A stretch of DNA of 23,428 bases from a virus (taxonomy: Duplodnaviria > Heunggongvirae > Uroviricota > Caudoviricetes), in the IMG/VR virus record IMGVR_UViG_2602041549_000007, positions 1 to 23,428 of that record. One strand, written 5' to 3'. A program made the position numbers and the translations under genes. Positions 568 to 8,113 of the stretch are shown piece by piece; positions within the stretch are counted from its first letter, which is position 1, and each line of letters begins with the position of its first letter. The notes beneath the pieces were generated by a model. That model searched no databases and was not told where the DNA came from. It was given only the letters and a program-made list of their open reading frames with translations.

Positions 568-1560
568 ATGGGTTTTTCATCAGCCCGAAATTTGGGAAGG
601 GACATATCGGCAGGATTTTCCCCACCACGTCGCATGCCGATTTCGGAGGCTGTTAAAAAATTCATGCGTGTTCCCAAGGGGGCTGGTAACTCGGTGCCAT
701 GGGATCCTGAACTGACACCCTACATCATTGAGCCCATGAACTGCCTGGCATCGCGTGAATACGATGCGGTGATTTTTGTTGGTCCTGCGCGAACAGGGAA
801 GACCATTGGTCTGATCGATGGATGGATTGTCTATACCATCGTTTGCGATCCTTCGGACATGCTCGTTGTGCAGATGACCGAAGATAAGGCCCGCGAGCAT
901 TCTAAAAAGCGCCTCGACAGAACGTTCAGAAGCAGTGCGGCGGTAAAGAAAAGAATGAGTCCACGTCGTAACGACAATAATGTCCATGATAAGACGTTCA
1001 GGGATGGCTCGTTCCTTAAAATTGGTTGGCCCTCGGTCAACATTATGTCGTCGTCGGATTACCGGTTTGTCGCCTTAACCGATTACGACCGTTTTCCGGA
1101 GAATATCGACAGCGAGGGTGATGGTTTCTCCCTGGCCTCAAAACGTACCACCACATTTATGTCCGCCGGGATGACTCTGGTGGAGAGCTCGCCGGGACGT
1201 GACATCTGCGACAGCAAATGGCGACGTAAGTCGCCTCATGAAGCGCCACCGACGACTGGGATTCTTTCCCTTTACAATCGTGGTGACCGCCGCCGCTGGT
1301 ACTGGCCATGTCCGCACTGCGGTGAATATTTTCAGCCAGCCATGGATGCCATGACCGGCTACCGTAATGAACCGGATCCCTTTAAAGCCAGTGAGGTGGC
1401 GTATCTACTTTGCCCGCACTGCAGCGGCATTATCACTGCGGAGAAAAAGCGTGAGCTCAATAGTGCAGGAGTCTGGTTGCGTGAAGGGCAGGTCATTGAT
1501 CGTAACGGCAACGTTTCCGGTGAACCGCGCCGCTCCCGTATCGCCAGTTTCTGGATGTAG
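568..1560 (+). pseudogene. Terminase large subunit (lambda gpA-like), N-terminal 330 codons; gene interrupted at 1557/1558 by the inserted element and resuming at 11899
   Basis: AGGAGG 5 nt upstream of ATG 568; CPHCG motif region and ...GVWLREGQVIDRNGNVSGEPRRSRIASFWM align with lambda gpA ...GIWTRDGILWFSSSGEEIEPPDSVTFHIWT; the ORF stops at TAG 1558-1560 where lambda gpA continues. Confidence 0.85.
1551..1557. repeat. Left copy of 7-bp direct repeat CTGGATG flanking the insert (putative att core/overlap)
   Basis: Identical heptamer at 11892-11898, exactly where the terL reading frame resumes. Confidence 0.6.
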
Positions 1561-1721
1561 GGTACATTTCTTACCTGTTTTTATGTTCTGGTGTCGTTTT
1601 GTAGTCTTTTCAATGAGTTGTGATTTTTTGTGTTTCCTCTCTTTACTTGATAATGAGTTAGTTTATCGCTTGTTATCGACTTGAAAGGACTACATGACGG
1701 ACTAAAAAATGAGGGCGATAG

Positions 1722-2960
1722 ATGCCGGTAAAGCCATTAACCGTGACTGAAGTTAAGGGAATGAAACCACGTGAAAAGGACTATGCCGTTTATGATGGGT
1801 TCGGTTTATTGCTGAATGTGAGTAAAGCTGGTGGGAAAGTGTGGCGTTTCCGTTATAGCCATCCGATAACGAAGAAACGGCAGACATACACGATAGGGCG
1901 TTTTCCTGAATTCTCACTCGCGGAAGCACGGGAAGTACGTGATGAACTTCGGCGAATGATTGCACGTGGAGTTGATCCAGTGACAGAGAAGAAAAATCGT
2001 AAAATTGAGATGTCACTAAAAAATCTACAAACATTTGAAGCTGTTGCTAATGCATGGATCGCTTTTAAAAAGGGATCGGAATTGCGGAAACCTACGCTGT
2101 ATAATATCGAATATGAAGTATACAAATATCTTGTTCCTTTCTTTGGTAAGTACAGCATAGAGAAAATTACAGCGCCAGTAGCTATTAATGCTCTGGATGC
2201 CGTATCCGATAAGAATGCGTTGCAAAAAAAATTAATATCAAGATTAAATGAAATTATGAATTACGCTGTAAATTGTGGAGCATTGAAAACGAATCCATTA
2301 CTTAAGATAAAAACTGCATTCACAGGAAAGAAAAATAAATCATTAGCTGCACTACCTGTTGAAAGATTGCCTGAATTTCTGAGTTGGTGGGATAGTGTGC
2401 CTCATAAGTATCAAATAGCTCACAATGCACTTTTATTCCAGATATTGACAATGGTCAGGCCAGGTGAGGCGATTAAAGCAGAGTGATCCGAGATTGATTT
2501 TGATTCTGGCTTGTGGATTATCCCCGCGCATAAAATGAAATGCCATCGTGAACATGTTGTGCCTCTCTCATCACAGGCTATTAGAATCCTAAGAACAATG
2601 CAGGAAATAAAAAGAGGGCGTTATATATTTTTTTCCTCCAGAACAAAAGATGCTCCTATGGGAAAGAATACTATCAATACCCCAATTGCTGCCAGCAAGT
2701 TCAAAGGGATTGTAACGTTACACGGTTTTCGTTCGATGTGGAGTACGCTTTTAAATGAGGAGGGTTTTAACCCTGATGTTATTGAGGCTGCATTAGCACA
2801 TAAAAGTGGTGATAAAATAAGAGATATTTATAATAGAACTACTTATTTAGAACAACGCAAAATTATGATGCAATGGGTAGGAGATTTTTTTGATGAGGCG
2901 AGAAAAGGGGTAATTAATAGATCCGGTGGTAAGAAAGGTTTGAGAATAGTAAATGGTTGA
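1722..2960 (+). pseudogene. int: P4-type tyrosine integrase interrupted by an in-frame TGA (2484-2486) at a conserved Trp codon
   Basis: ORFs 1722-2486 and 2511-2960 are in the same frame; read-through gives ...RPGEAIKAE*SEIDFDSGLWIIPA, matching the P4/CP4-57 integrase motif ...AEARWDEIDLD..W.IPA; C-terminal HGFRS and LAH box present; GAGGG RBS before ATG 1722. Confidence 0.85.
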
Positions 2961-2972
2961 GGAGTTCAGCAA

Positions 2973-3176
2973 ATGAATACCAATGAAGATATTTTATTTA
3001 CTAAAGACGTAATGAAAATTTTGCGCTATGGGGCAATGAGCGCATTCATCAATTTCTGGAAAGATGAAAATAATGGTTTTCCTCAACCGTTCAGAATTGG
3101 GCGGCGGCATACCTGGCACCGTAGAGATGTAGAGGCATGGTTAGATAAACAACGAGAACAGGCCAATCCCCACTAA
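2973..3176 (+). CDS. alpA: AlpA-family DNA-binding regulator / excisionase-like protein
   Basis: 67 aa immediately downstream of int; pattern ..FP.P...G.R..W...DVE.WL typical of the AlpA/phage regulatory family; GGAG RBS. Confidence 0.7.
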   Translation: MNTNEDILFTKDVMKILRYGAMSAFINFWKDENNGFPQPFRIGRRHTWHRRDVEAWLDKQREQANPH

Positions 3177-3190
3177 TAATATCTTTCATA

Positions 3191-3216
3191 CCCCGCACGC
3201 AATGCGGGGTTTTTTG
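3191..3216 (+). terminator. Rho-independent terminator after alpA
   Basis: CCCCGCA-cgcaa-TGCGGGG hairpin followed by TTTTTT. Confidence 0.7.
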
Positions 3217-3233
3217 TATGTGAGGTAAAAACG

Positions 3234-3812
3234 ATGAATAAAAATATTGCCGTGACGGGCAAGGGGTACGCTCGTTCAGTAAAAAAATTCTGCGATATTC
3301 GTGATCTTGTCGTTCTGCGCTTTAATGGCGTGGATGTTCGTGTGGTGTATCTGAACGGCGATCCGTGGTTTGTTGCAAACGATGTTTGTGCTGCGCTGGA
3401 ACTAACCAATTCGCGTACGGCGTTGCAGATGCTTGATGATGATGAAAAGGGAGTAAATTTAACTTACACCCCAGGAGGAAATCAGAATATGAGCATTATC
3501 TCTGGGTCAGGTTTCTACAAACTAATAGCCCGCAGCCGCAAAGCAACGACGCCTGGCACATTTGCTCATCGTTTCAGTAACTGGGTATTCAGAAATGTGA
3601 TACCGGGTATCAGAGAAACAGGGGCTTATGGTATCCCATGGGGTGCATTACAGGATTTTTCCCGCCGTAAAGAGCAATATCAAATAAGTGCCAGCGAGAA
3701 GGGGAGGGGGCTACAGGCATGTAAGCGCAAAAAGCGTGAGCTGGAGGAAGAAGAAAAAAGGCTGATACGTGAATATCAGCCTGAGTTTTACTTTGGTAAC
3801 CGCATTCAGTGA
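3234..3812 (+). CDS. Bro-N domain protein (phage antirepressor-like)
   Basis: 192 aa; ...VRVVYLNGDPWFVANDVCAALELTNSRTALQMLDDDEKG is a typical Bro-N motif; GAGG RBS 8 nt upstream. Confidence 0.8.
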   Translation: MNKNIAVTGKGYARSVKKFCDIRDLVVLRFNGVDVRVVYLNGDPWFVANDVCAALELTNSRTALQMLDDDEKGVNLTYTPGGNQNMSIISGSGFYKLIARSRKATTPGTFAHRFSNWVFRNVIPGIRETGAYGIPWGALQDFSRRKEQYQISASEKGRGLQACKRKKRELEEEEKRLIREYQPEFYFGNRIQ

Positions 3813-3841
3813 CAAAACAAAGGCGACCGGGGGCGGTCGCC
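3812..3841 (-). terminator. Hairpin terminator for the leftward transcript (between convergent genes)
   Basis: Perfect 8-bp stem GGCGACCG/CGGTCGCC with GGGG loop at 3822-3841; the T-rich tract is on the minus strand (plus-strand ACAAAACAAA, 3812-3821). Confidence 0.55.
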
Positions 3842-3905
3842 AATGGGAAAGCACTAAACATAAGCACGGGGATGATAGCCGCTATCAGGCTGGTGGGCAA
3901 TGCAA

Positions 3906-4094
3906 TCAGTCTGGTTCAGTTCGTTGCCATACCTGCAATGAGCGCGTTTCCCTGTACTCTTTAAGGAATTGCTCAAGGGCAAAAGCACATGGCGCGAATC
4001 TTTCTGATTCATGCTCTATCTTTCTGCGCCGTCTTTTCCGTGCCGGTGATAATGTTTTGGTCAATTCTTTATCGGTCATTGTGTTGTCCTGCAT
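3906..4094 (-). CDS. Hypothetical small basic protein (62 aa), downstream of the RHH gene on the same strand
   Basis: ORF lies between the RHH gene and the minus-strand terminator; no convincing Shine-Dalgarno; contains an RKRRRRK tract. Weak call. Confidence 0.3.
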   Translation of the reverse strand: MQDNTMTDKELTKTLSPARKRRRRKIEHESERFAPCAFALEQFLKEYRETRSLQVWQRTEPD

Positions 4095-4136
4095 AGCAAT
4101 GCGCCGTAATACCTTACACCACGGCGCTGATGGTGA

Positions 4137-4316
4137 TTACTCTGGTTCTTTGGCCTTGCGGCGCTGGCGGCGTTTGATCTCGCCTTCAAGTGCCGAAACG
4201 ATAAATTGCCCAGTGCTTTCGCCTTCTTCCTTTAAATTTTCTACAGCGTCAGCTATTGCATGGGGGACTCGTGCCTCAAGTTTTTTGGATTTTCCATTAA
4301 CTGCTTTCGTTGCCAT
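4137..4316 (-). CDS. Ribbon-helix-helix (CopG/Arc-like) DNA-binding protein, putative satellite repressor
   Basis: Start taken at internal ATG (MATKAVNGKSKKLEARVPHAIADAVENLKEEGESTGQFIVSALEGEI...) with AAGGA RBS; beta-strand plus two-helix pattern typical of RHH; the tracked 117-aa ORF is over-extended. Confidence 0.65.
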   Translation of the reverse strand: MATKAVNGKSKKLEARVPHAIADAVENLKEEGESTGQFIVSALEGEIKRRQRRKAKEPE

Positions 4317-4338
4317 ATCTGATTTCCTTGTTATTAGG

Positions 4339-4421
4339 TGGCTGACAGTATACACACAAGAAAATGGAAAAACACTATTGACGTGGCTGACACCTGTTAC
4401 TAGTATAGTGGCTGACACCTT
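4339..4421. promoter_or_regulatory. Divergent promoter/operator region with three copies of GTGGCTGACA(CCT)
   Basis: Copies at 4339-4348, 4383-4395, 4409-4421; rightward promoter TTGACG (4378-4383), 17-nt spacer, TAGTAT (4401-4406) overlapped by copies 2 and 3; candidate leftward promoter TTGTGT-17-TAATAA with copy 1 in its spacer. Confidence 0.5.
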
Positions 4422-4515
4422 TATTGAGGTAATCGATGAAAAGACAAAGCCCGCAGGTGCTACCAACACCAACGGGCTTCTAACCACCAACGATAGAAAG
4501 AGTATCGAGGTAGCT

Positions 4516-4722
4516 ATGAGAAATCATACCACACACCCGCAAGGGCGGGACTCGCACAACCTGAATAAATACATCTGGCGTTTTATCGCCCTGAGCACGG
4601 CACAACCGCGCGTGATTACCATTGAGGCCACTAGCGAACAGGAAGCACGCCAGCAATCCCCGGCTGGCTGCGTGATGGTATTCGCCGCCCGTATTCGTCA
4701 GGGGGTACGCCATGTGCAATAA
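4516..4722 (+). CDS. Hypothetical protein, first gene of the rightward early operon (possibly Ash/Icd-like; family uncertain)
   Basis: 68-codon ORF with GAGGTAGCT RBS; corresponds to the 3' end of the artifactual 317-aa ORF 3769-4722. Confidence 0.5.
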   Translation: MRNHTTHPQGRDSHNLNKYIWRFIALSTAQPRVITIEATSEQEARQQSPAGCVMVFAARIRQGVRHVQ

Positions 4723-4948
4723 CACCCGTCCGGACGCAGCCGCCGAAGCAATCAAAACACTGATTGATGCGCTGATTGATATTTCTGTTATCGCGGACAG
4801 GGCGCATAAGCACGCTACCAGTGAAACAGAATATACCAGGGCTTTCGTTCCTCGCTCACTGGTTGCTATGCGGATTATCGCTGATATGGCACTGAATGAG
4901 GCCAGCAAAATTATCATGGCTGATATGGAGGTGGTGAGCCATGCATAA
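4712..4948 (+). CDS. Hypothetical protein (78 aa)
   Basis: Start overlaps the previous stop (ATGTGCAATAA); same strand, operon-like packing. Confidence 0.5.
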   Translation: MCNNTRPDAAAEAIKTLIDALIDISVIADRAHKHATSETEYTRAFVPRSLVAMRIIADMALNEASKIIMADMEVVSHA

Positions 4949-5153
4949 TCATGAAACGCACTTACCTGTAGTGCTGAATGTGCCATCAGATTATACGGGT
5001 CGCGTACTGGTGTATCTGGGAAAAGGCCGGGTTAGATGCCAGTGCCGTTTAATGGAAAACGAATTTATCAGCACTCTTGCGGGATTTTCTGAAATGCTCA
5101 CTAAATCGGGTGTTAGTGCAGACCAGTTATGCGGGGGCGATTATGCGAAATAA
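4941..5153 (+). CDS. Hypothetical protein (70 aa)
   Basis: Overlapping start/stop with the preceding ORF; no recognisable domain. Confidence 0.45.
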   Translation: MHNHETHLPVVLNVPSDYTGRVLVYLGKGRVRCQCRLMENEFISTLAGFSEMLTKSGVSADQLCGGDYAK

Positions 5154-5361
5154 ACGTGATATTGAAGACCTGGCATTTGAAGCCCTGCACTCTGCGAAAA
5201 AGATCAGGGAAGTCGTCAATATGTGGATGAACAGCCTTAGCACCGATAAATCCGATAGCAGAGAAGAAATTCTTATTTCTTTGTTGTTAGACCTGGCAAA
5301 TACACAGGTTTCTCTGACATCTGATATTGAACTCGCCGCTAAAAAGCAGCCTCTGGAGTAA
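5143..5361 (+). CDS. Hypothetical protein (72 aa)
   Basis: ATG 5143 overlaps the upstream stop (ATGCGAAATAA); the tracked ORF from 5077 is judged over-extended. Confidence 0.45.
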   Translation: MRNKRDIEDLAFEALHSAKKIREVVNMWMNSLSTDKSDSREEILISLLLDLANTQVSLTSDIELAAKKQPLE

Positions 5362-5366
5362 AAACC

Positions 5367-5666
5367 ATGAAAAAGAAAAATTCTGGCATTACTGCCAGCG
5401 GCCTCTCTCGGCCTGAAATCCGCCCAGGCGATATTTTCCGGGATAACTACGGCGGCACGGTAACGATTAAAAGCGTGGCGGGACGGTGCGTTACTTACCG
5501 CCGTGATGGGTACGGCTATGACTGCGTGATGCCTGTTTATCAGTTCCGGCGTGATTTTTCACTGATACAGGCCACACCACGCAAACAGCCCACCAGCAAC
5601 GCCAGGGCACGGGCGAACATTCAGAAAATGAAAAACATGATTAACGCATTCAGGGGCAAAAAATGA
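5367..5666 (+). CDS. Hypothetical protein (99 aa)
   Basis: GGAG RBS; stop overlaps the start of the replication gene. Confidence 0.5.
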   Translation: MKKKNSGITASGLSRPEIRPGDIFRDNYGGTVTIKSVAGRCVTYRRDGYGYDCVMPVYQFRRDFSLIQATPRKQPTSNARARANIQKMKNMINAFRGKK

Positions 5667-7078
5667 AACTGGCACCGAACTTAAAAAAACAGCCACACGA
5701 CAAAATGACCGAAGTCATTATTTTTGCGGGTAGTGATGCCTGGGCGCACGCGAAACAATGGCAGGAGCAGGACGGGCGACTTGCTGGCGATAACGTCCCG
5801 CCTGTATGGCTGGGAGACAGCCAGCTTGACGAACTGGCAGACCTTAAAATCATCGACGATGGTCGCTATTGTGTCCGGCTGTACAAGGCAGGCCACATCA
5901 AGCCGTCAAATATTAATGCCATCGGGCAAAAGCTGGCGACGGCAGGTGTACGGGATGCGAATTATTACCCCGAGGGAATGCACAGCCAGAAGCGGGAGGA
6001 GTGGCGCGAATATCTGGAGCGTGAGCGCCAGAAAAAAATGTCCGGAGAGATACCGGAGGAAGAAAAAAACGAACAGCGAAAAACCACGCTACCAATGAGT
6101 ATTGGATCTGCAGGGTACGACACACAGCTTGATTATGTCGTTAAGGGCGTGATTCCGGCTAATTCGTTGTGCAGCACATACGGCGCGAGCGGTTCCTATA
6201 AATCGTTCCTTGCGTGTTCCTGGGCGTGTCATGTTGCCACTGGTCGCCACTGGGGAGGCCGCAGGGTGGCGCATGGTTCGGTGATGTATGTTGTCGGTGA
6301 AGGTGGCATTGGTGTCCCCCGTCGTATCAAGGCATGGGAAATCGTTAATGATGAACGGGTGAAAAATCTGTACCTGGTAAACCGCCCGATTTTTCCGGCA
6401 GCCCCGCTTGATGTTGATGAAATGGTCATCGCTTCCCGCCAGGTTGAACGGGAAACGGGTAAACCGGTACGCATGATTATTCTGGATACGCTGGCGCGTT
6501 GCTTTGGCGGTAATGATGAAAATGACGCGCGGGATATGGGGGCGTTTATCCGTGGATGTGACGAACTGAAACGCCGCACAGGGGTCACGGTGCTGGTGGT
6601 TCACCATTCCGGCAAGGATGAAACAAAGGGAGCGCGTGGTTCCAGTGCATTTCGTGCATCTCTGGACGCTGAATACCGTATTCGCCGGGAAGGTGCAGAC
6701 AGCGAAGCTCTGGTTATCTCCTGCACCAAAATGAAGGACGCGGAGGAACTGAAAGAGGCTGCATATGATTTACGTGTGGTGGAGCTTTTTACCGACACTG
6801 ACGGGGAGTTAATCACGTCGCTGGTGGTTGTGGATAAGCCGCGCCCGCCTGTTGAACTGGAACGCATCGAGGAAGCCGGGAACAAGACGGAGAATCATGC
6901 CGCGCTATGGGGATGTATCCGTTCACGCACACAGCGTGGCGATAAATGCACTATTCCGTTGTTGCGCGATGATATGAAAAAGCTGGGGTATGAGATGAAA
7001 CACTTCCGGCGCTGGCTGTACAAGCTGGAAGGTGATGGCGTTATTGCTATTGACGGTGATGACGTGCGCCCACTGTAA
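5663..7078 (+). CDS. Replication protein, RepA/DnaB-like AAA ATPase (helicase) with C-terminal putative origin-binding domain
   Basis: 471 aa; Walker A-like GASGSYKS, Walker B-like MIILD, VVHHSGKD motif typical of the AAA_25/RepA helicase family; iteron array starts at its stop codon. Confidence 0.75.
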   Translation: MKLAPNLKKQPHDKMTEVIIFAGSDAWAHAKQWQEQDGRLAGDNVPPVWLGDSQLDELADLKIIDDGRYCVRLYKAGHIKPSNINAIGQKLATAGVRDANYYPEGMHSQKREEWREYLERERQKKMSGEIPEEEKNEQRKTTLPMSIGSAGYDTQLDYVVKGVIPANSLCSTYGASGSYKSFLACSWACHVATGRHWGGRRVAHGSVMYVVGEGGIGVPRRIKAWEIVNDERVKNLYLVNRPIFPAAPLDVDEMVIASRQVERETGKPVRMIILDTLARCFGGNDENDARDMGAFIRGCDELKRRTGVTVLVVHHSGKDETKGARGSSAFRASLDAEYRIRREGADSEALVISCTKMKDAEELKEAAYDLRVVELFTDTDGELITSLVVVDKPRPPVELERIEEAGNKTENHAALWGCIRSRTQRGDKCTIPLLRDDMKKLGYEMKHFRRWLYKLEGDGVIAIDGDDVRPL

Positions 7079-7271
7079 AAAGTGGGTAGTAAAAGTGGGG
7101 AGTGTGGGGAATTTAACAAAATTGAAACGTGATTCCCCACTTTCCCACCTGTATATACCCCAAAAAGTGGGGAGTAAAAAACACATTGAAAAACAGTACA
7201 TTAGAGTCACAAAAAAAAGAAGTGGGGAGACGTTGGGTAATTTCAAAAAGTGGGGAACAAAAGTGGGGAGT
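7078..7271. repeat. Iteron array (AAGTGGGGAG), putative satellite replication origin
   Basis: Direct copies at 7078-7088 (variant), 7091-7101, 7165-7175, 7219-7229, 7248-7258, 7261-7271, one inverted copy at 7134-7143 and a degenerate copy at 7103-7110, separated by A-rich tracts. Confidence 0.6.
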
Positions 7272-7279
7272 GGTGAGGA

Positions 7280-7531
7280 ATGACCAGAAAAACCAGAGAT
7301 AAAACAGCGCCAAAATATCGCGCATTAGACATGACAGAGCACGCCTTAAAGGTGGCAATCAGAACAATAGACCGCCATGCCGGAGAAGGATACGCGAAAA
7401 CACATCCCGAACTGATAAGCGCATTCATGACAGCGGCGGCGGCAAACTTTGCCACGCTGACAGAGCTGGAGATAGCCGAAGCGGAACAGGTGACAACCAT
7501 CAACGTTAAAACCGGAGAGCAGACAGCATGA
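7280..7531 (+). CDS. Hypothetical protein (83 aa)
   Basis: ORF immediately downstream of the iterons; stop overlaps the start of the SSB-like gene. Confidence 0.5.
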   Translation: MTRKTRDKTAPKYRALDMTEHALKVAIRTIDRHAGEGYAKTHPELISAFMTAAAANFATLTELEIAEAEQVTTINVKTGEQTA

Positions 7532-7950
7532 CAGCACAGATAGCGGCTTACGGGAGGCTGGCGACTGACCCGCAGTTAAAGACCACCAGCAAAGGGACAC
7601 AAATGGCGATGGCGAGTATGGCGGTCCCACTGCCATGCAGTCAGGCAGATGACGGAACGGCGACGATGTGGTTATCCGTCCTGGCGTTTGGCAGACAGGC
7701 CGATGCGCTGGCCAGACACCACAAAGGCGAACTGGTGAGCGTGGCGGGTAACATGCAGGTAAGCCAGTGGACAGGCCAGAACGGGGAAACGCGGCAGGGC
7801 TGGCAGGTTATCGCAGACAGTGTAATCAGTGCGCGAACGGCGCGACCGGGCGGCAAAAAAGGCCAGCAGGGCCAGGCTACTGACGCACTGAACAGGGCAA
7901 AACAACAGGCGGGGAATGATGATCCGTACGGGGATAACATACCGTTTTAA
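7528..7950 (+). CDS. Single-stranded DNA-binding protein-like (divergent SSB)
   Basis: 140 aa; OB-fold-like N-terminal region with the SSB pattern (...W..V..FG..A......KG..V...G.....W.......R...) and C-terminal DDPYGDNIPF resembling the SSB tail DDDIPF. Confidence 0.65.
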   Translation: MTAQIAAYGRLATDPQLKTTSKGTQMAMASMAVPLPCSQADDGTATMWLSVLAFGRQADALARHHKGELVSVAGNMQVSQWTGQNGETRQGWQVIADSVISARTARPGGKKGQQGQATDALNRAKQQAGNDDPYGDNIPF

Positions 7951-7965
7951 GCAACGAGTAACAGA

Positions 7966-7989
7966 AGCCGGAGTAATCCGGCTTTTTTA
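7966..7989 (+). terminator. Rho-independent terminator after the SSB-like gene
   Basis: AGCCGGA-gtaa-TCCGGCT hairpin plus TTTTTT. Confidence 0.65.
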
Positions 7990-7990
7990 T

Positions 7991-8062
7991 GGGTCCTTCC
8001 GGTGTAGTGACCTGCCACGGGGCGGGAGCGTCGCGGGAAAAGGCTGGTTTTTGCATTTTCAT
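7991..8062 (+). other. cos site A (lambda-like cosQ-cosN), satellite copy 1
   Basis: GGGTCCTTCCGGTGTAGTGACCTGCCACG GGGCGGGAGCGT CGCGGG matches lambda ...GGGTCCTTTCCGGTGATCCGACAGGTTACG GGGCGGCGACCT CGCGGG (lambda sequence recalled from memory); predicted 12-nt cohesive end 8020-8031. Confidence 0.75.
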
Positions 8063-8113
8063 GGCGGCGGCAGCATGTGTGATAATTTATTGATAATTAA
8101 AAATTATTTCTGC

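What the first reader, a model, noticed from the sequence alone, without database searches (positions are those of the whole stretch)
1722..2960. Integrase carries a single in-frame TGA at a conserved tryptophan codon
The P4-type integrase reads through in one frame except for TGA at 2484-2486, where homologues have Trp (ARW-EIDxD). Both flanking parts are intact with conserved catalytic-region motifs downstream. Either the satellite is immobilised by a recent TGG-to-TGA nonsense mutation or sequencing error, or low-level UGA read-through by tRNA-Trp, which would restore the wild-type residue, gives a deliberately low integrase dose. Given that the element sits inside helper terL, a locked-in satellite would permanently cripple the prophage.
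Basis: partly seen in the sequence, partly recalled or inferred. Interest (0 to 1): 0.5.

Follow-up and report, generated by a model that had tools for sequence, protein, structure and literature searches.

The report
Broken integrase locks satellite in terminase
A single G-to-A change has turned a conserved tryptophan codon of a phage-satellite integrase into a stop codon in one E. coli clone, an ordinary gene-killing mutation that probably strands the satellite inside its helper prophage's packaging gene.

Summary
ATG 1722 to TGA 2958-2960 is one frame of 412 sense codons with a single internal stop, TGA at 2484-2486. That codon is Trp in 112 of 115 homologues.

The closest intact alleles differ by two bases, one of them TGG versus TGA. 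All other copies examined carry TGG: 79 complete E. coli genomes, 31 IMG/VR contigs and 5 metagenome contigs.

It is not a one-off sequencing error. The exact 254-aa truncated product occurs on at least 24 contigs. These include four NCBI assemblies and two gut metagenome assemblies. The six loci fetched are 99.98-100% identical to the window over about 12.5 kb. It is therefore a real, recent allele inherited vertically in one clone.

The stop separates catalytic Arg246 from Lys273, His334, Arg337, His360 and Tyr370, so the product should be inactive.

Nothing supports programmed read-through. The +4 base is U, the low read-through context. There is no downstream RNA structure, no tRNA gene and no conservation of the TGA.

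The element is a helper-embedded PICI (a class described in 2023). It splits a GpA-type terL at a 7-bp core, and in-silico excision restores an intact terL. The finding is real and of low novelty.

The parts
1722..2486 (+). 5' part of the P4/CP4-57-type tyrosine integrase gene. It encodes a 254-aa product with the arm-binding and core-binding domains and catalytic Arg246, and ends at the premature TGA.
   Evidence: ORF list and translation. Pfam Arm-DNA-bind_3, Phage_int_M and Phage_int_SAM_3. The exact product is present on at least 24 public contigs.
2484..2486 (+). Premature stop TGA at codon 255, where the ancestral codon is TGG (Trp). It arose by a G-to-A transition at 2486. The next base, 2487, is T, so the stop signal is UGA-U.
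   Evidence: W in 112 of 115 homologues. TGG in 36 of 36 other contigs.
2487..2960 (+). 3' part of the integrase gene, in the same frame. It is identical to intact alleles and encodes Lys273, His334, Arg337, His360 and Tyr370/375. It is not expected to be translated beyond trace read-through.
   Evidence: PF00589 spans residues 235-374.
2973..3176 (+). AlpA-like excisionase and transcriptional regulator (67 aa), intact.
   Evidence: PHROG 66, 'excisionase and transcriptional regulator', E 9.3e-07. Relatives are annotated as a helix-turn-helix regulator, WP_001095275.1.
1551..1557 (+). attL core CTGGATG, the left junction of the satellite with helper terL. The terL 5' fragment ends ...FWM followed by TAG at 1558-1560.
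   Evidence: Read directly from the sequence. The joined junction matches uninterrupted terL genes.
11892..11898 (+). attR core CTGGATG, the right junction of the satellite with helper terL.
568..1560 (+). Helper prophage terL, 5' fragment (GpA ATPase domain, 330 aa), truncated by the satellite insertion.
   Evidence: Pfam GpA_ATPase, E 2.3e-81. RefSeq relatives are annotated as 'incomplete; missing C-terminus'.
11896..13008 (+). Helper prophage terL, 3' fragment (GpA endonuclease domain, 370 aa).
   Evidence: Pfam GpA_nuclease, E 5.4e-84. Joining it to 568-1557 gives a 699-aa open frame.
1558..11891 (+). Body of the helper-embedded satellite, about 10.3 kb. Gene order: int, alpA-like gene, Bro-N anti-repressor (3234-3812), DUF4222 (5367-5666), AAA_25 replication protein (5663-7078), SSB (7528-7950), ClpP-protease/major-capsid fusion (8581-10494), terS-like DUF1441 (10695-11237).
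   Evidence: The same gene order is seen in relatives.

Best explanation
A spontaneous G-to-A transition (TGG to TGA) at codon 255 inactivated the tyrosine integrase of a helper-embedded PICI-type phage satellite. The mutation is real, recent and inherited vertically in one E. coli clone.

The 254-aa product keeps the arm-binding domain, the core-binding domain and catalytic Arg246. It lacks Lys273, His334, Arg337, His360 and the tyrosine nucleophile, so it cannot cut or rejoin DNA.

The satellite sits at a 7-bp core (CTGGATG) inside the helper prophage's GpA-type terL. Only Int-mediated excision rejoins the two halves of that gene. The mutation is therefore inferred to strand the satellite and leave the helper without its own large terminase.

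Read-through of UGA by tRNA-Trp would regenerate wild-type Int, but only as unselected background leakage.

Shown here: the mutation, its derived state, its presence in independent assemblies, the clonal context, the split terL, and the restoration of terL by in-silico excision. Inferred: loss of excision, and the consequences for the satellite and the helper.
For: - One internal stop in an otherwise intact 412-codon frame.
- The nearest intact alleles differ only at 1742 (synonymous) and 2486 (TGG/TGA).
- W255 is W in 112 of 115 homologues. R246, K273, H334, R337, H360 and Y370 are invariant, and five of these lie after the stop.
- The exact truncated protein is indexed in 39 blocks of the collection, and 24 contigs were read. 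They include GCA_000496995.1, GCA_040936145.1, GCA_051013205.1, GCA_053285515.1 and the ENA metagenomes ERZ27271792 and ERZ28581431.
- The six loci fetched all carry TGA. They differ from the window at 0-3 positions in about 12.5 kb, flanks included.
- No exact match to the TGA-containing 61-mer in 79 complete E. coli genomes that carry the region.
- TGG in 36 of 36 IMG/VR and metagenome contigs. Of 31 full-length copies, 30 have no internal stop; the 31st was an out-of-register extraction.
- The +4 base is U, a context linked to low read-through (PMC5289835).
- No downstream RNA structure (z = -0.42), no tRNA gene and no Rfam hit.
- The integrase's own natural stop is also TGA, so UGA means stop in this system.
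- terL is split into GpA_ATPase and GpA_nuclease fragments.
- Joining at CTGGATG gives a 699-aa ORF. The 600-nt junction matches uninterrupted terL in one piece at 99.7%.
- The other satellite genes are full length against PHROG profiles.
Against: - No functional data. Excision was not measured, and raw reads could not be inspected.
- UGA is the leakiest stop codon in E. coli, about 2% at 37 C in a K-12 reporter (PMC10570021). Read-through inserts Trp, the wild-type residue, so some full-length Int must be made.
- int is co-oriented with the helper late operon, so it may be heavily transcribed late in induction. That would raise the absolute amount of read-through product.
- Because the carriers are clonal, the fact that every TGA copy was found integrated in terL does not by itself prove immobility.
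- The rest of the carriers' genomes was not searched for a second, intact integrase of the same specificity.
Confidence: 0.85

Rival explanations
1. Leaky or attenuated integrase. tRNA-Trp reads UGA at a low rate and regenerates wild-type Int. Excision and terL repair then occur rarely, and the allele is tolerated or even favoured as a way of damping satellite and helper activity.
For: - Read-through of UGA in E. coli occurs by competition between Trp-tRNA-Trp and RF2, at about 2-4% in a K-12 reporter (PMC10570021).
- The residue restored would be the conserved Trp.
- The downstream coding sequence is still identical to intact alleles.
- int is co-oriented with the helper late operon.
- The allele is present in assemblies whose accession series are far apart. 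That these span more than a decade is my inference from the accession numbers.
Against: - The TGA is confined to one near-identical clone and absent from all relatives examined. There is no recurrent or conserved use of the stop.
- The +4 U context lowers read-through.
- No stimulatory RNA structure.
- With 0-3 SNPs among carriers, the intact downstream sequence reflects recency and gives no evidence of selection.
- From general knowledge: tyrosine integrases act as tetramers, so activity should fall much faster than dose.
Confidence: 0.1
2. Sequencing or assembly artefact. The true sequence is TGG.
For: It is a single-base difference from intact alleles. Raw reads could not be checked.
Against: The same TGA is present in six fetched loci from four NCBI assemblies and two metagenome assemblies. 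These were made by different projects, and the contig names suggest different assemblers. The truncated protein is on record from NCBI, JGI/IMG, Logan, ENA and UniRef.
Confidence: 0.01
3. The satellite stays mobile by complementation. Either a second, intact integrase of the same specificity elsewhere in the genome acts in trans, or the two Int fragments reassemble (the N-terminal 254 aa plus a re-initiated C-terminal piece).
For: Several complete E. coli genomes carry two copies of this integrase family (column places_in_record = 2). Gene callers propose C-terminal ORFs of 100-155 aa after the stop.
Against: - All TGA copies seen are in the same terL context.
- No ATG or GTG start lies directly after the stop. 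The first listed start is a TTG at 2511, and the gene-caller start at 2493 falls on ATT. No ribosome-binding site was tested for.
- The split falls inside the catalytic domain, between Arg246 and Lys273.
- The attP junction 30-mer was not found in the viral or metagenome contig collections.
Confidence: 0.04

Closest known systems
Helper-embedded PICIs (HE-PICIs), prototype 11capE in prophage 50icd of E. coli NRG857c (Tommasini, Mageeney & Williams 2023, PMC10111431)
   Same: - The satellite is integrated inside a late gene of a lambdoid helper prophage and is co-oriented with it.
- It has the same four zones: int + AlpA, Bro-N, replication, and captured late genes (capsid).
- The att identity block is short, and attP carries no replacement sequence, so the helper gene stays broken until the satellite excises.
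- Integrase relatives target other late-gene sites.
- A cos-like copy of helper sequence lies inside the satellite.
   Different: - The target is a GpA-type terL at the ATPase/nuclease boundary. The terminase sites I could retrieve from the paper's text and supplements are A:Terminase_1:132 and A:Terminase_1:245/246. Its attL and attR alignments contain no GpA entry and no match to this att flank.
- The doubled TGTATTGC arm motif at -81/+132 is not present as such. Only related TTTATYGC-like repeats occur, at about -103 and +117.
- This copy has a dead integrase.
Defective prophages with disrupted integrases, for example those of E. coli O157 Sakai (Asadulghani et al. 2009, PMC2669165)
   Same: Point or insertion lesions in integration or excision functions strand mobile elements in the chromosome. 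Other resident prophages can still complement lost functions such as terminase.
   Different: Here one lesion disables two nested elements at once, because the stranded element interrupts the helper's terL.
Natural UGA read-through by tRNA-Trp in E. coli, for example native nudL (PMC10570021) and the phage Q-beta A1 protein (the latter from my own knowledge)
   Same: The decoding event would be the same: Trp-tRNA-Trp competing with RF2 at UGA.
   Different: Functional read-through sites are conserved among relatives. This TGA is private to one clone, sits at an internal catalytic-domain codon that is TGG everywhere else, and has the unfavourable +4 U.
Regulated gene integrity (as discussed in PMC10111431), in which excision of an integrated element restores the gene it interrupts
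   Same: Excision of the element is what restores the interrupted gene (in-silico restoration).
   Different: The interrupted gene belongs to another mobile element. In this allele the switch is inferred to be jammed.

Membership tests
P4/CP4-57-type tyrosine integrase | N-terminal arm-type DNA-binding domain (Arm-DNA-bind_3, formerly DUF4102) | tested here: met
   PF13356, E 4.9e-23, residues 6-92. PDB matches to the N-terminal domains of 'CP4-like integrase' 3jtz and 'Phage integrase' 3ju0.
P4/CP4-57-type tyrosine integrase | Core-binding (SAM-like) domain plus C-terminal catalytic domain PF00589 | tested here: met
   PF22022 E 3e-10, PF14659 E 2.5e-06, and PF00589 E 7.1e-21 at residues 235-374, all on the read-through translation.
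P4/CP4-57-type tyrosine integrase | Catalytic residues Arg, Lys, His-x-x-Arg, His and Tyr are present | tested here: met
   R246, K273, H334, R337, H360 and Y370 (also Y375) are invariant columns among 115 homologues and are present in the window's conceptual translation.
P4/CP4-57-type tyrosine integrase | Uninterrupted reading frame giving a full-length enzyme | tested here: not met
   TGA at codon 255. The gene is a member by descent but a pseudogene in this clone.
Helper-embedded PICI (HE-PICI) | [quoted passage not shown] | tested here: met
   The element lies between the GpA_ATPase and GpA_nuclease fragments of one terL, and all named satellite genes are on the + strand like the helper late genes. 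The same arrangement is seen in relatives.
Helper-embedded PICI (HE-PICI) | Zone order int + AlpA / Bro / replication / late genes | tested here: met
   int, a PHROG 66 excisionase, a Bro-N anti-repressor, AAA_25 + SSB, a protease-capsid fusion and a terS-like gene, in that order.
Helper-embedded PICI (HE-PICI) | Short att identity block, no replacement sequence in attP, and precise excision restores the late gene | tested here: met
   7-bp CTGGATG at 1551-1557 and 11892-11898. The terL fragment ends in TAG straight after the core. The in-silico joint gives a 699-aa ORF and matches intact terL at 99.7%.
Helper-embedded PICI (HE-PICI) | Doubled TGTATTGC motif about 81 bp upstream and about 132 bp downstream of the attP centre | tested here: not met
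   No exact TGTATTGC anywhere in the window, and one-mismatch hits are at chance level. Related repeats occur: TTTTTTGC/TTTATTGC at 11783-11801 and TTTATCGC/GTTATCGA at 1662-1679, at roughly -103 and +117, with different spacing.
Helper-embedded PICI (HE-PICI) | Integrase falls inside the 11capE integrase clade | not tested
   No tree was built with 11capE Int. Indirect support only: a 59%-identical relative (P0014) sits in another late-gene site downstream of Phage_cap_E/FI/FII, and a 75%-identical Salmonella relative sits in GpA terL.
Programmed stop-codon read-through or selenocysteine recoding | The stop codon is conserved at the site among relatives | tested here: not met
   TGG in all relatives: no exact match in 79 complete genomes, 36 of 36 contigs, and W in 112 of 115 proteins.
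Programmed stop-codon read-through or selenocysteine recoding | A stimulatory context or structure (leaky +4 base, or a SECIS-like hairpin just downstream) | tested here: not met
   The +4 base is U (PMC5289835). The 71-nt fold has z = -0.42 against shuffles. No Rfam family matched.

The most novel reading that the evidence does not exclude
The UGA at Trp255 works as an attenuator, not a kill switch. Read-through by tRNA-Trp depends on growth state, and it regenerates exactly wild-type Int at a percent-or-less level. Satellite excision, and with it repair of the helper's terL, would then become a rare stochastic event. The clone would keep a mostly silent but not dead satellite-helper composite.
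Probability: 0.05. Interest if true: 0.6.

Novelty: new member of a known kind. Interest (0 to 1): 0.2.

Why it matters
In itself this is an ordinary pseudogenising mutation, and it should be annotated as such rather than as recoding.

Its modest interest lies in the architecture. The satellite is nested in the helper's terminase gene, so one base change in the satellite integrase is predicted to immobilise two mobile elements at once. The change is also reversible by a single transition.

The carrier clone and its TGG relatives would make a natural isogenic pair for testing how satellite excision gates helper packaging in helper-embedded PICIs. The GpA-terL site seen here is widespread: 89 of 5426 complete E. 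coli genomes carry this integrase. It appears to extend the published list of HE-PICI target sites.

Tried and rejected
- **Selenocysteine or structure-stimulated read-through.** Rejected: the fold of 2475-2545 is no better than shuffled sequence and there are no Rfam hits.
- **Suppressor tRNA in the window.** None found.
- **Alternative genetic code.** Rejected: the host is E. coli, and the gene's own terminator is TGA.
- **Exact scan of GTDB species representatives around the codon.** 0 hits. Uninformative, because there is only one genome per species.
- **Search for the excised circular form (attP 30-mer).** 0 hits in IMG/VR and in the metagenome contigs. This is weak negative evidence only.
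- **Published HE-PICI arm motif TGTATTGC.** Not present.
- **HE-PICI paper supplements searched for a GpA site or this att flank.** Nothing found. One spreadsheet was truncated when stored.
- **Poole et al. 1995 (PMC398062), for quantitative UGA-N termination values.** Not held. The context argument therefore rests on PMC5289835.
- **Split-integrase idea.** Considered and rated low: the break lies inside the catalytic domain, and no ATG or GTG start lies directly after the stop.

Full report
**1. The observation**

Reading 1722-2960 on the + strand gives one frame of 412 sense codons. It starts at ATG 1722 and ends at TGA 2958-2960. The only internal stop is TGA at 2484-2486, which is codon 255. 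The ORF finder accordingly splits the gene into 1722-2486 (254 aa) and a same-frame remainder.

On the conceptual read-through protein, Pfam finds the full architecture of a P4/CP4-57-type tyrosine integrase:
- Arm-DNA-bind_3 (E 4.9e-23)
- Phage_int_M and Phage_int_SAM_3
- Phage_integrase, residues 235-374 (E 7.1e-21)

The N-terminal domain also matches the solved structures 3ju0 ('Phage integrase') and 3jtz ('CP4-like integrase').

**2. Is codon 255 a conserved Trp?**

I aligned 115 full-length homologues, 39-97% identical, drawn from 4171 hits. The column is W in 112, F in 2 and I in 1.

Invariant columns include R246, K273, H334, R337, H360 and Y370/Y375. These are the Arg, Lys, His-x-x-Arg, His and Tyr residues of tyrosine recombinases; that assignment follows established knowledge of the family. 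Only R246 lies before the stop.

**3. Is the TGA ancestral, recurrent or private?**

- The closest intact alleles in complete E. coli genomes are strains EC21GDE043 and A5. They differ from the window at two of 1239 positions: a synonymous C/T at 1742 and G/A at 2486.
- A 61-mer centred on the stop has no exact match in any of the 79 complete genomes that contain this region.
- A degenerate pattern that allows any base at 2486 found 5 metagenome contigs and 31 IMG/VR contigs. All 36 read TGG. Of the 31 full-length copies, 30 have no internal stop. The remaining one (L041) was only 67% identical in my ungapped extraction and so was not read in register.

The TGA is therefore derived and rare. 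Nothing has changed downstream of it, so it is also recent.

**4. Is it an artefact?**

No. The exact 254-aa product is indexed in 39 blocks of the assembly collection, and 24 contigs were read. They include four NCBI assemblies (GCA_000496995.1, GCA_040936145.1, GCA_051013205.1, GCA_053285515.1) and two ENA metagenome assemblies (ERZ27271792, ERZ28581431). The protein is also on record in NCBI, JGI/IMG, Logan, ENA and UniRef.

All six fetched loci carry TGA. They are 99.98-100% identical to the window over about 12.5 kb, helper flanks included. The only differences are at 8113, 8127 and 9138.

This is one clone carrying one allele by descent. It gives no evidence that the TGA-bearing element has moved between backgrounds. 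Given the clonality, it also gives no strong evidence that the element cannot move.

**5. What the gene belongs to**

The integrase opens a satellite of about 10.3 kb (1558-11891). Its genes, in order:

| Coordinates | Gene |
|---|---|
| 1722-2960 | int |
| 2973-3176 | AlpA-like excisionase |
| 3234-3812 | Bro-N anti-repressor |
| 5367-5666 | DUF4222 |
| 5663-7078 | AAA_25 replication protein |
| 7528-7950 | SSB |
| 8581-10494 | ClpP-protease/major-capsid fusion |
| 10695-11237 | terS-like DUF1441 |

All are full length against PHROG or Pfam profiles.

The satellite interrupts a GpA-type terL. The GpA_ATPase fragment is 568-1560 and the GpA_nuclease fragment is 11896-13008. The junctions share a 7-bp core, CTGGATG, at 1551-1557 and 11892-11898. 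Joining them gives a 699-aa open frame. The 600-nt joint matches uninterrupted terL genes in a single piece at 99.7% identity, and 1064 genomes cover at least 80% of it.

This is the arrangement described as a helper-embedded PICI (HE-PICI) by Tommasini, Mageeney and Williams (PMC10111431). Such an element is a satellite co-oriented inside a helper late gene. Its attP carries no replacement sequence, so the helper gene is restored only when the satellite excises.

Relatives of this integrase behave the same way:
- A 75%-identical Salmonella integrase also follows a GpA_ATPase fragment.
- A 59%-identical E. coli integrase sits in a different late-gene site, downstream of cap_E/FI/FII.

Two details differ from the published set:
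- Its terminase sites are in Terminase_1-type genes, and its att alignments contain no GpA entry or this flank.
- Its doubled TGTATTGC arm motif is absent here. Related TTTATYGC-like repeats occur at different distances instead.

**6. Mechanism**

*Shown.* A single transition creates a stop that removes 158 of 412 residues, including five of the six catalytic residues.

*Inferred.* The 254-aa product may still bind arm and core sites, but it cannot catalyse strand exchange. The satellite would then not excise, and the helper's terL would stay split.

- One base change reverts the stop.
- Some genomes carry two copies of this integrase family.
- Terminase from another resident prophage with a matching cos can package a terminase-defective prophage, as proposed for Sp4 and Sp14 in O157 Sakai (PMC2669165).

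**7. The read-through idea**

It is true that UGA is decoded at a low rate by Trp-tRNA-Trp in competition with RF2. The rate is about 2% at 37 C and 4% at 25 C in a K-12 reporter (PMC10570021). The residue inserted would be the wild-type Trp.

Every test for a programmed event failed:
- The stop is not conserved.
- The +4 base is U, the context associated with reduced read-through in E. coli (PMC5289835).
- The 71 nt from 2475 fold no better than shuffles (z = -0.42).
- The window has no Rfam family and no tRNA gene.
- The gene's own terminator is also TGA.

Some trace of full-length Int is expected. There is no evidence that it matters or was selected.

**8. Verdict**

The 'recent nonsense mutation' reading is supported, 'sequencing error' is excluded, and 'deliberate low dose' is unsupported.

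The feature is an integrase pseudogene in one clone. It lies within a known class of satellite, at a helper-gene site that seems not to have been catalogued. Interest is low for the stop codon itself and moderate for the context.

Noticed in passing
window 1551-1557 and 11892-11898; relatives L001, L002, L003, L049: The satellite family targets a GpA-type terL at the ATPase/nuclease domain boundary (core CTGGATG). The integrase occurs in 89 of 5426 complete E. coli genomes, including O157:H7, O121 and O111 strains, and a 75%-identical relative occupies the same site in Salmonella. The HE-PICI paper's att alignments list only Terminase_1-type terminase sites, so this looks like an uncatalogued HE-PICI site group.
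   Followed up: partly
window 7983-8062 and 10519-10598; also 7991-8227: An 80-nt direct repeat (93% identical) lies inside the satellite. The second copy sits just upstream of the satellite's terS-like gene. The stretch 7991-8227 is 92% identical to the region just upstream of the helper's terS, seen in L004 at 8086-8322. It is probably a cos or packaging-site copy captured from the helper.
   Followed up: partly
window 7077-7289: Three copies of AAAAAGTGGGGAGTAAAA-like 18-mers, spaced about 84 nt apart, lie immediately after the AAA_25 replication gene. They look like iterons of the satellite's replication origin.
   Followed up: no
window 8581-10494 versus 14478-16697: Both satellite and helper encode a ClpP-protease/major-capsid fusion protein (637 aa, and up to 739 aa for the helper). 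The two genes share an 87-nt patch of about 93% identity, at roughly 9333-9419 and 15557-15643. This hints at recombination or capture of the helper's capsid gene.
   Followed up: no
window 1662-1679 and 11771-11801: Repeated TTTATYGC-like octamers flank the attP core on both arms, at about +117 and -103. They may be arm-type Int sites. They resemble the published HE-PICI motif TGTATTGC but differ from it in sequence and spacing. A block TCAATGAGTTGTGATTTT (1610-1627) is conserved in the attL arm across integrases down to 59% identity.
   Followed up: partly
window 8113, 8127, 9138: These are the only polymorphisms among the six TGA-carrying loci. The window and GCA_000496995.1 have C and C at 8113 and 8127, while the other five loci have T and A. 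Both positions lie within 7991-8227, the stretch that resembles the helper's terS-upstream region. One metagenome contig also has G>T at 9138.
   Followed up: no
window 2485-2488: The G-to-A change creates a new GATC (Dam) site, GGTCC becoming GATCC. The original TGG context is not a Dcm CCWGG hotspot.
   Followed up: no
window 11896-11898: The att core supplies an in-frame ATG at the start of the terL 3' fragment. A free-standing 370-aa nuclease-domain ORF therefore exists on paper. I did not test whether it has a ribosome-binding site.
   Followed up: no
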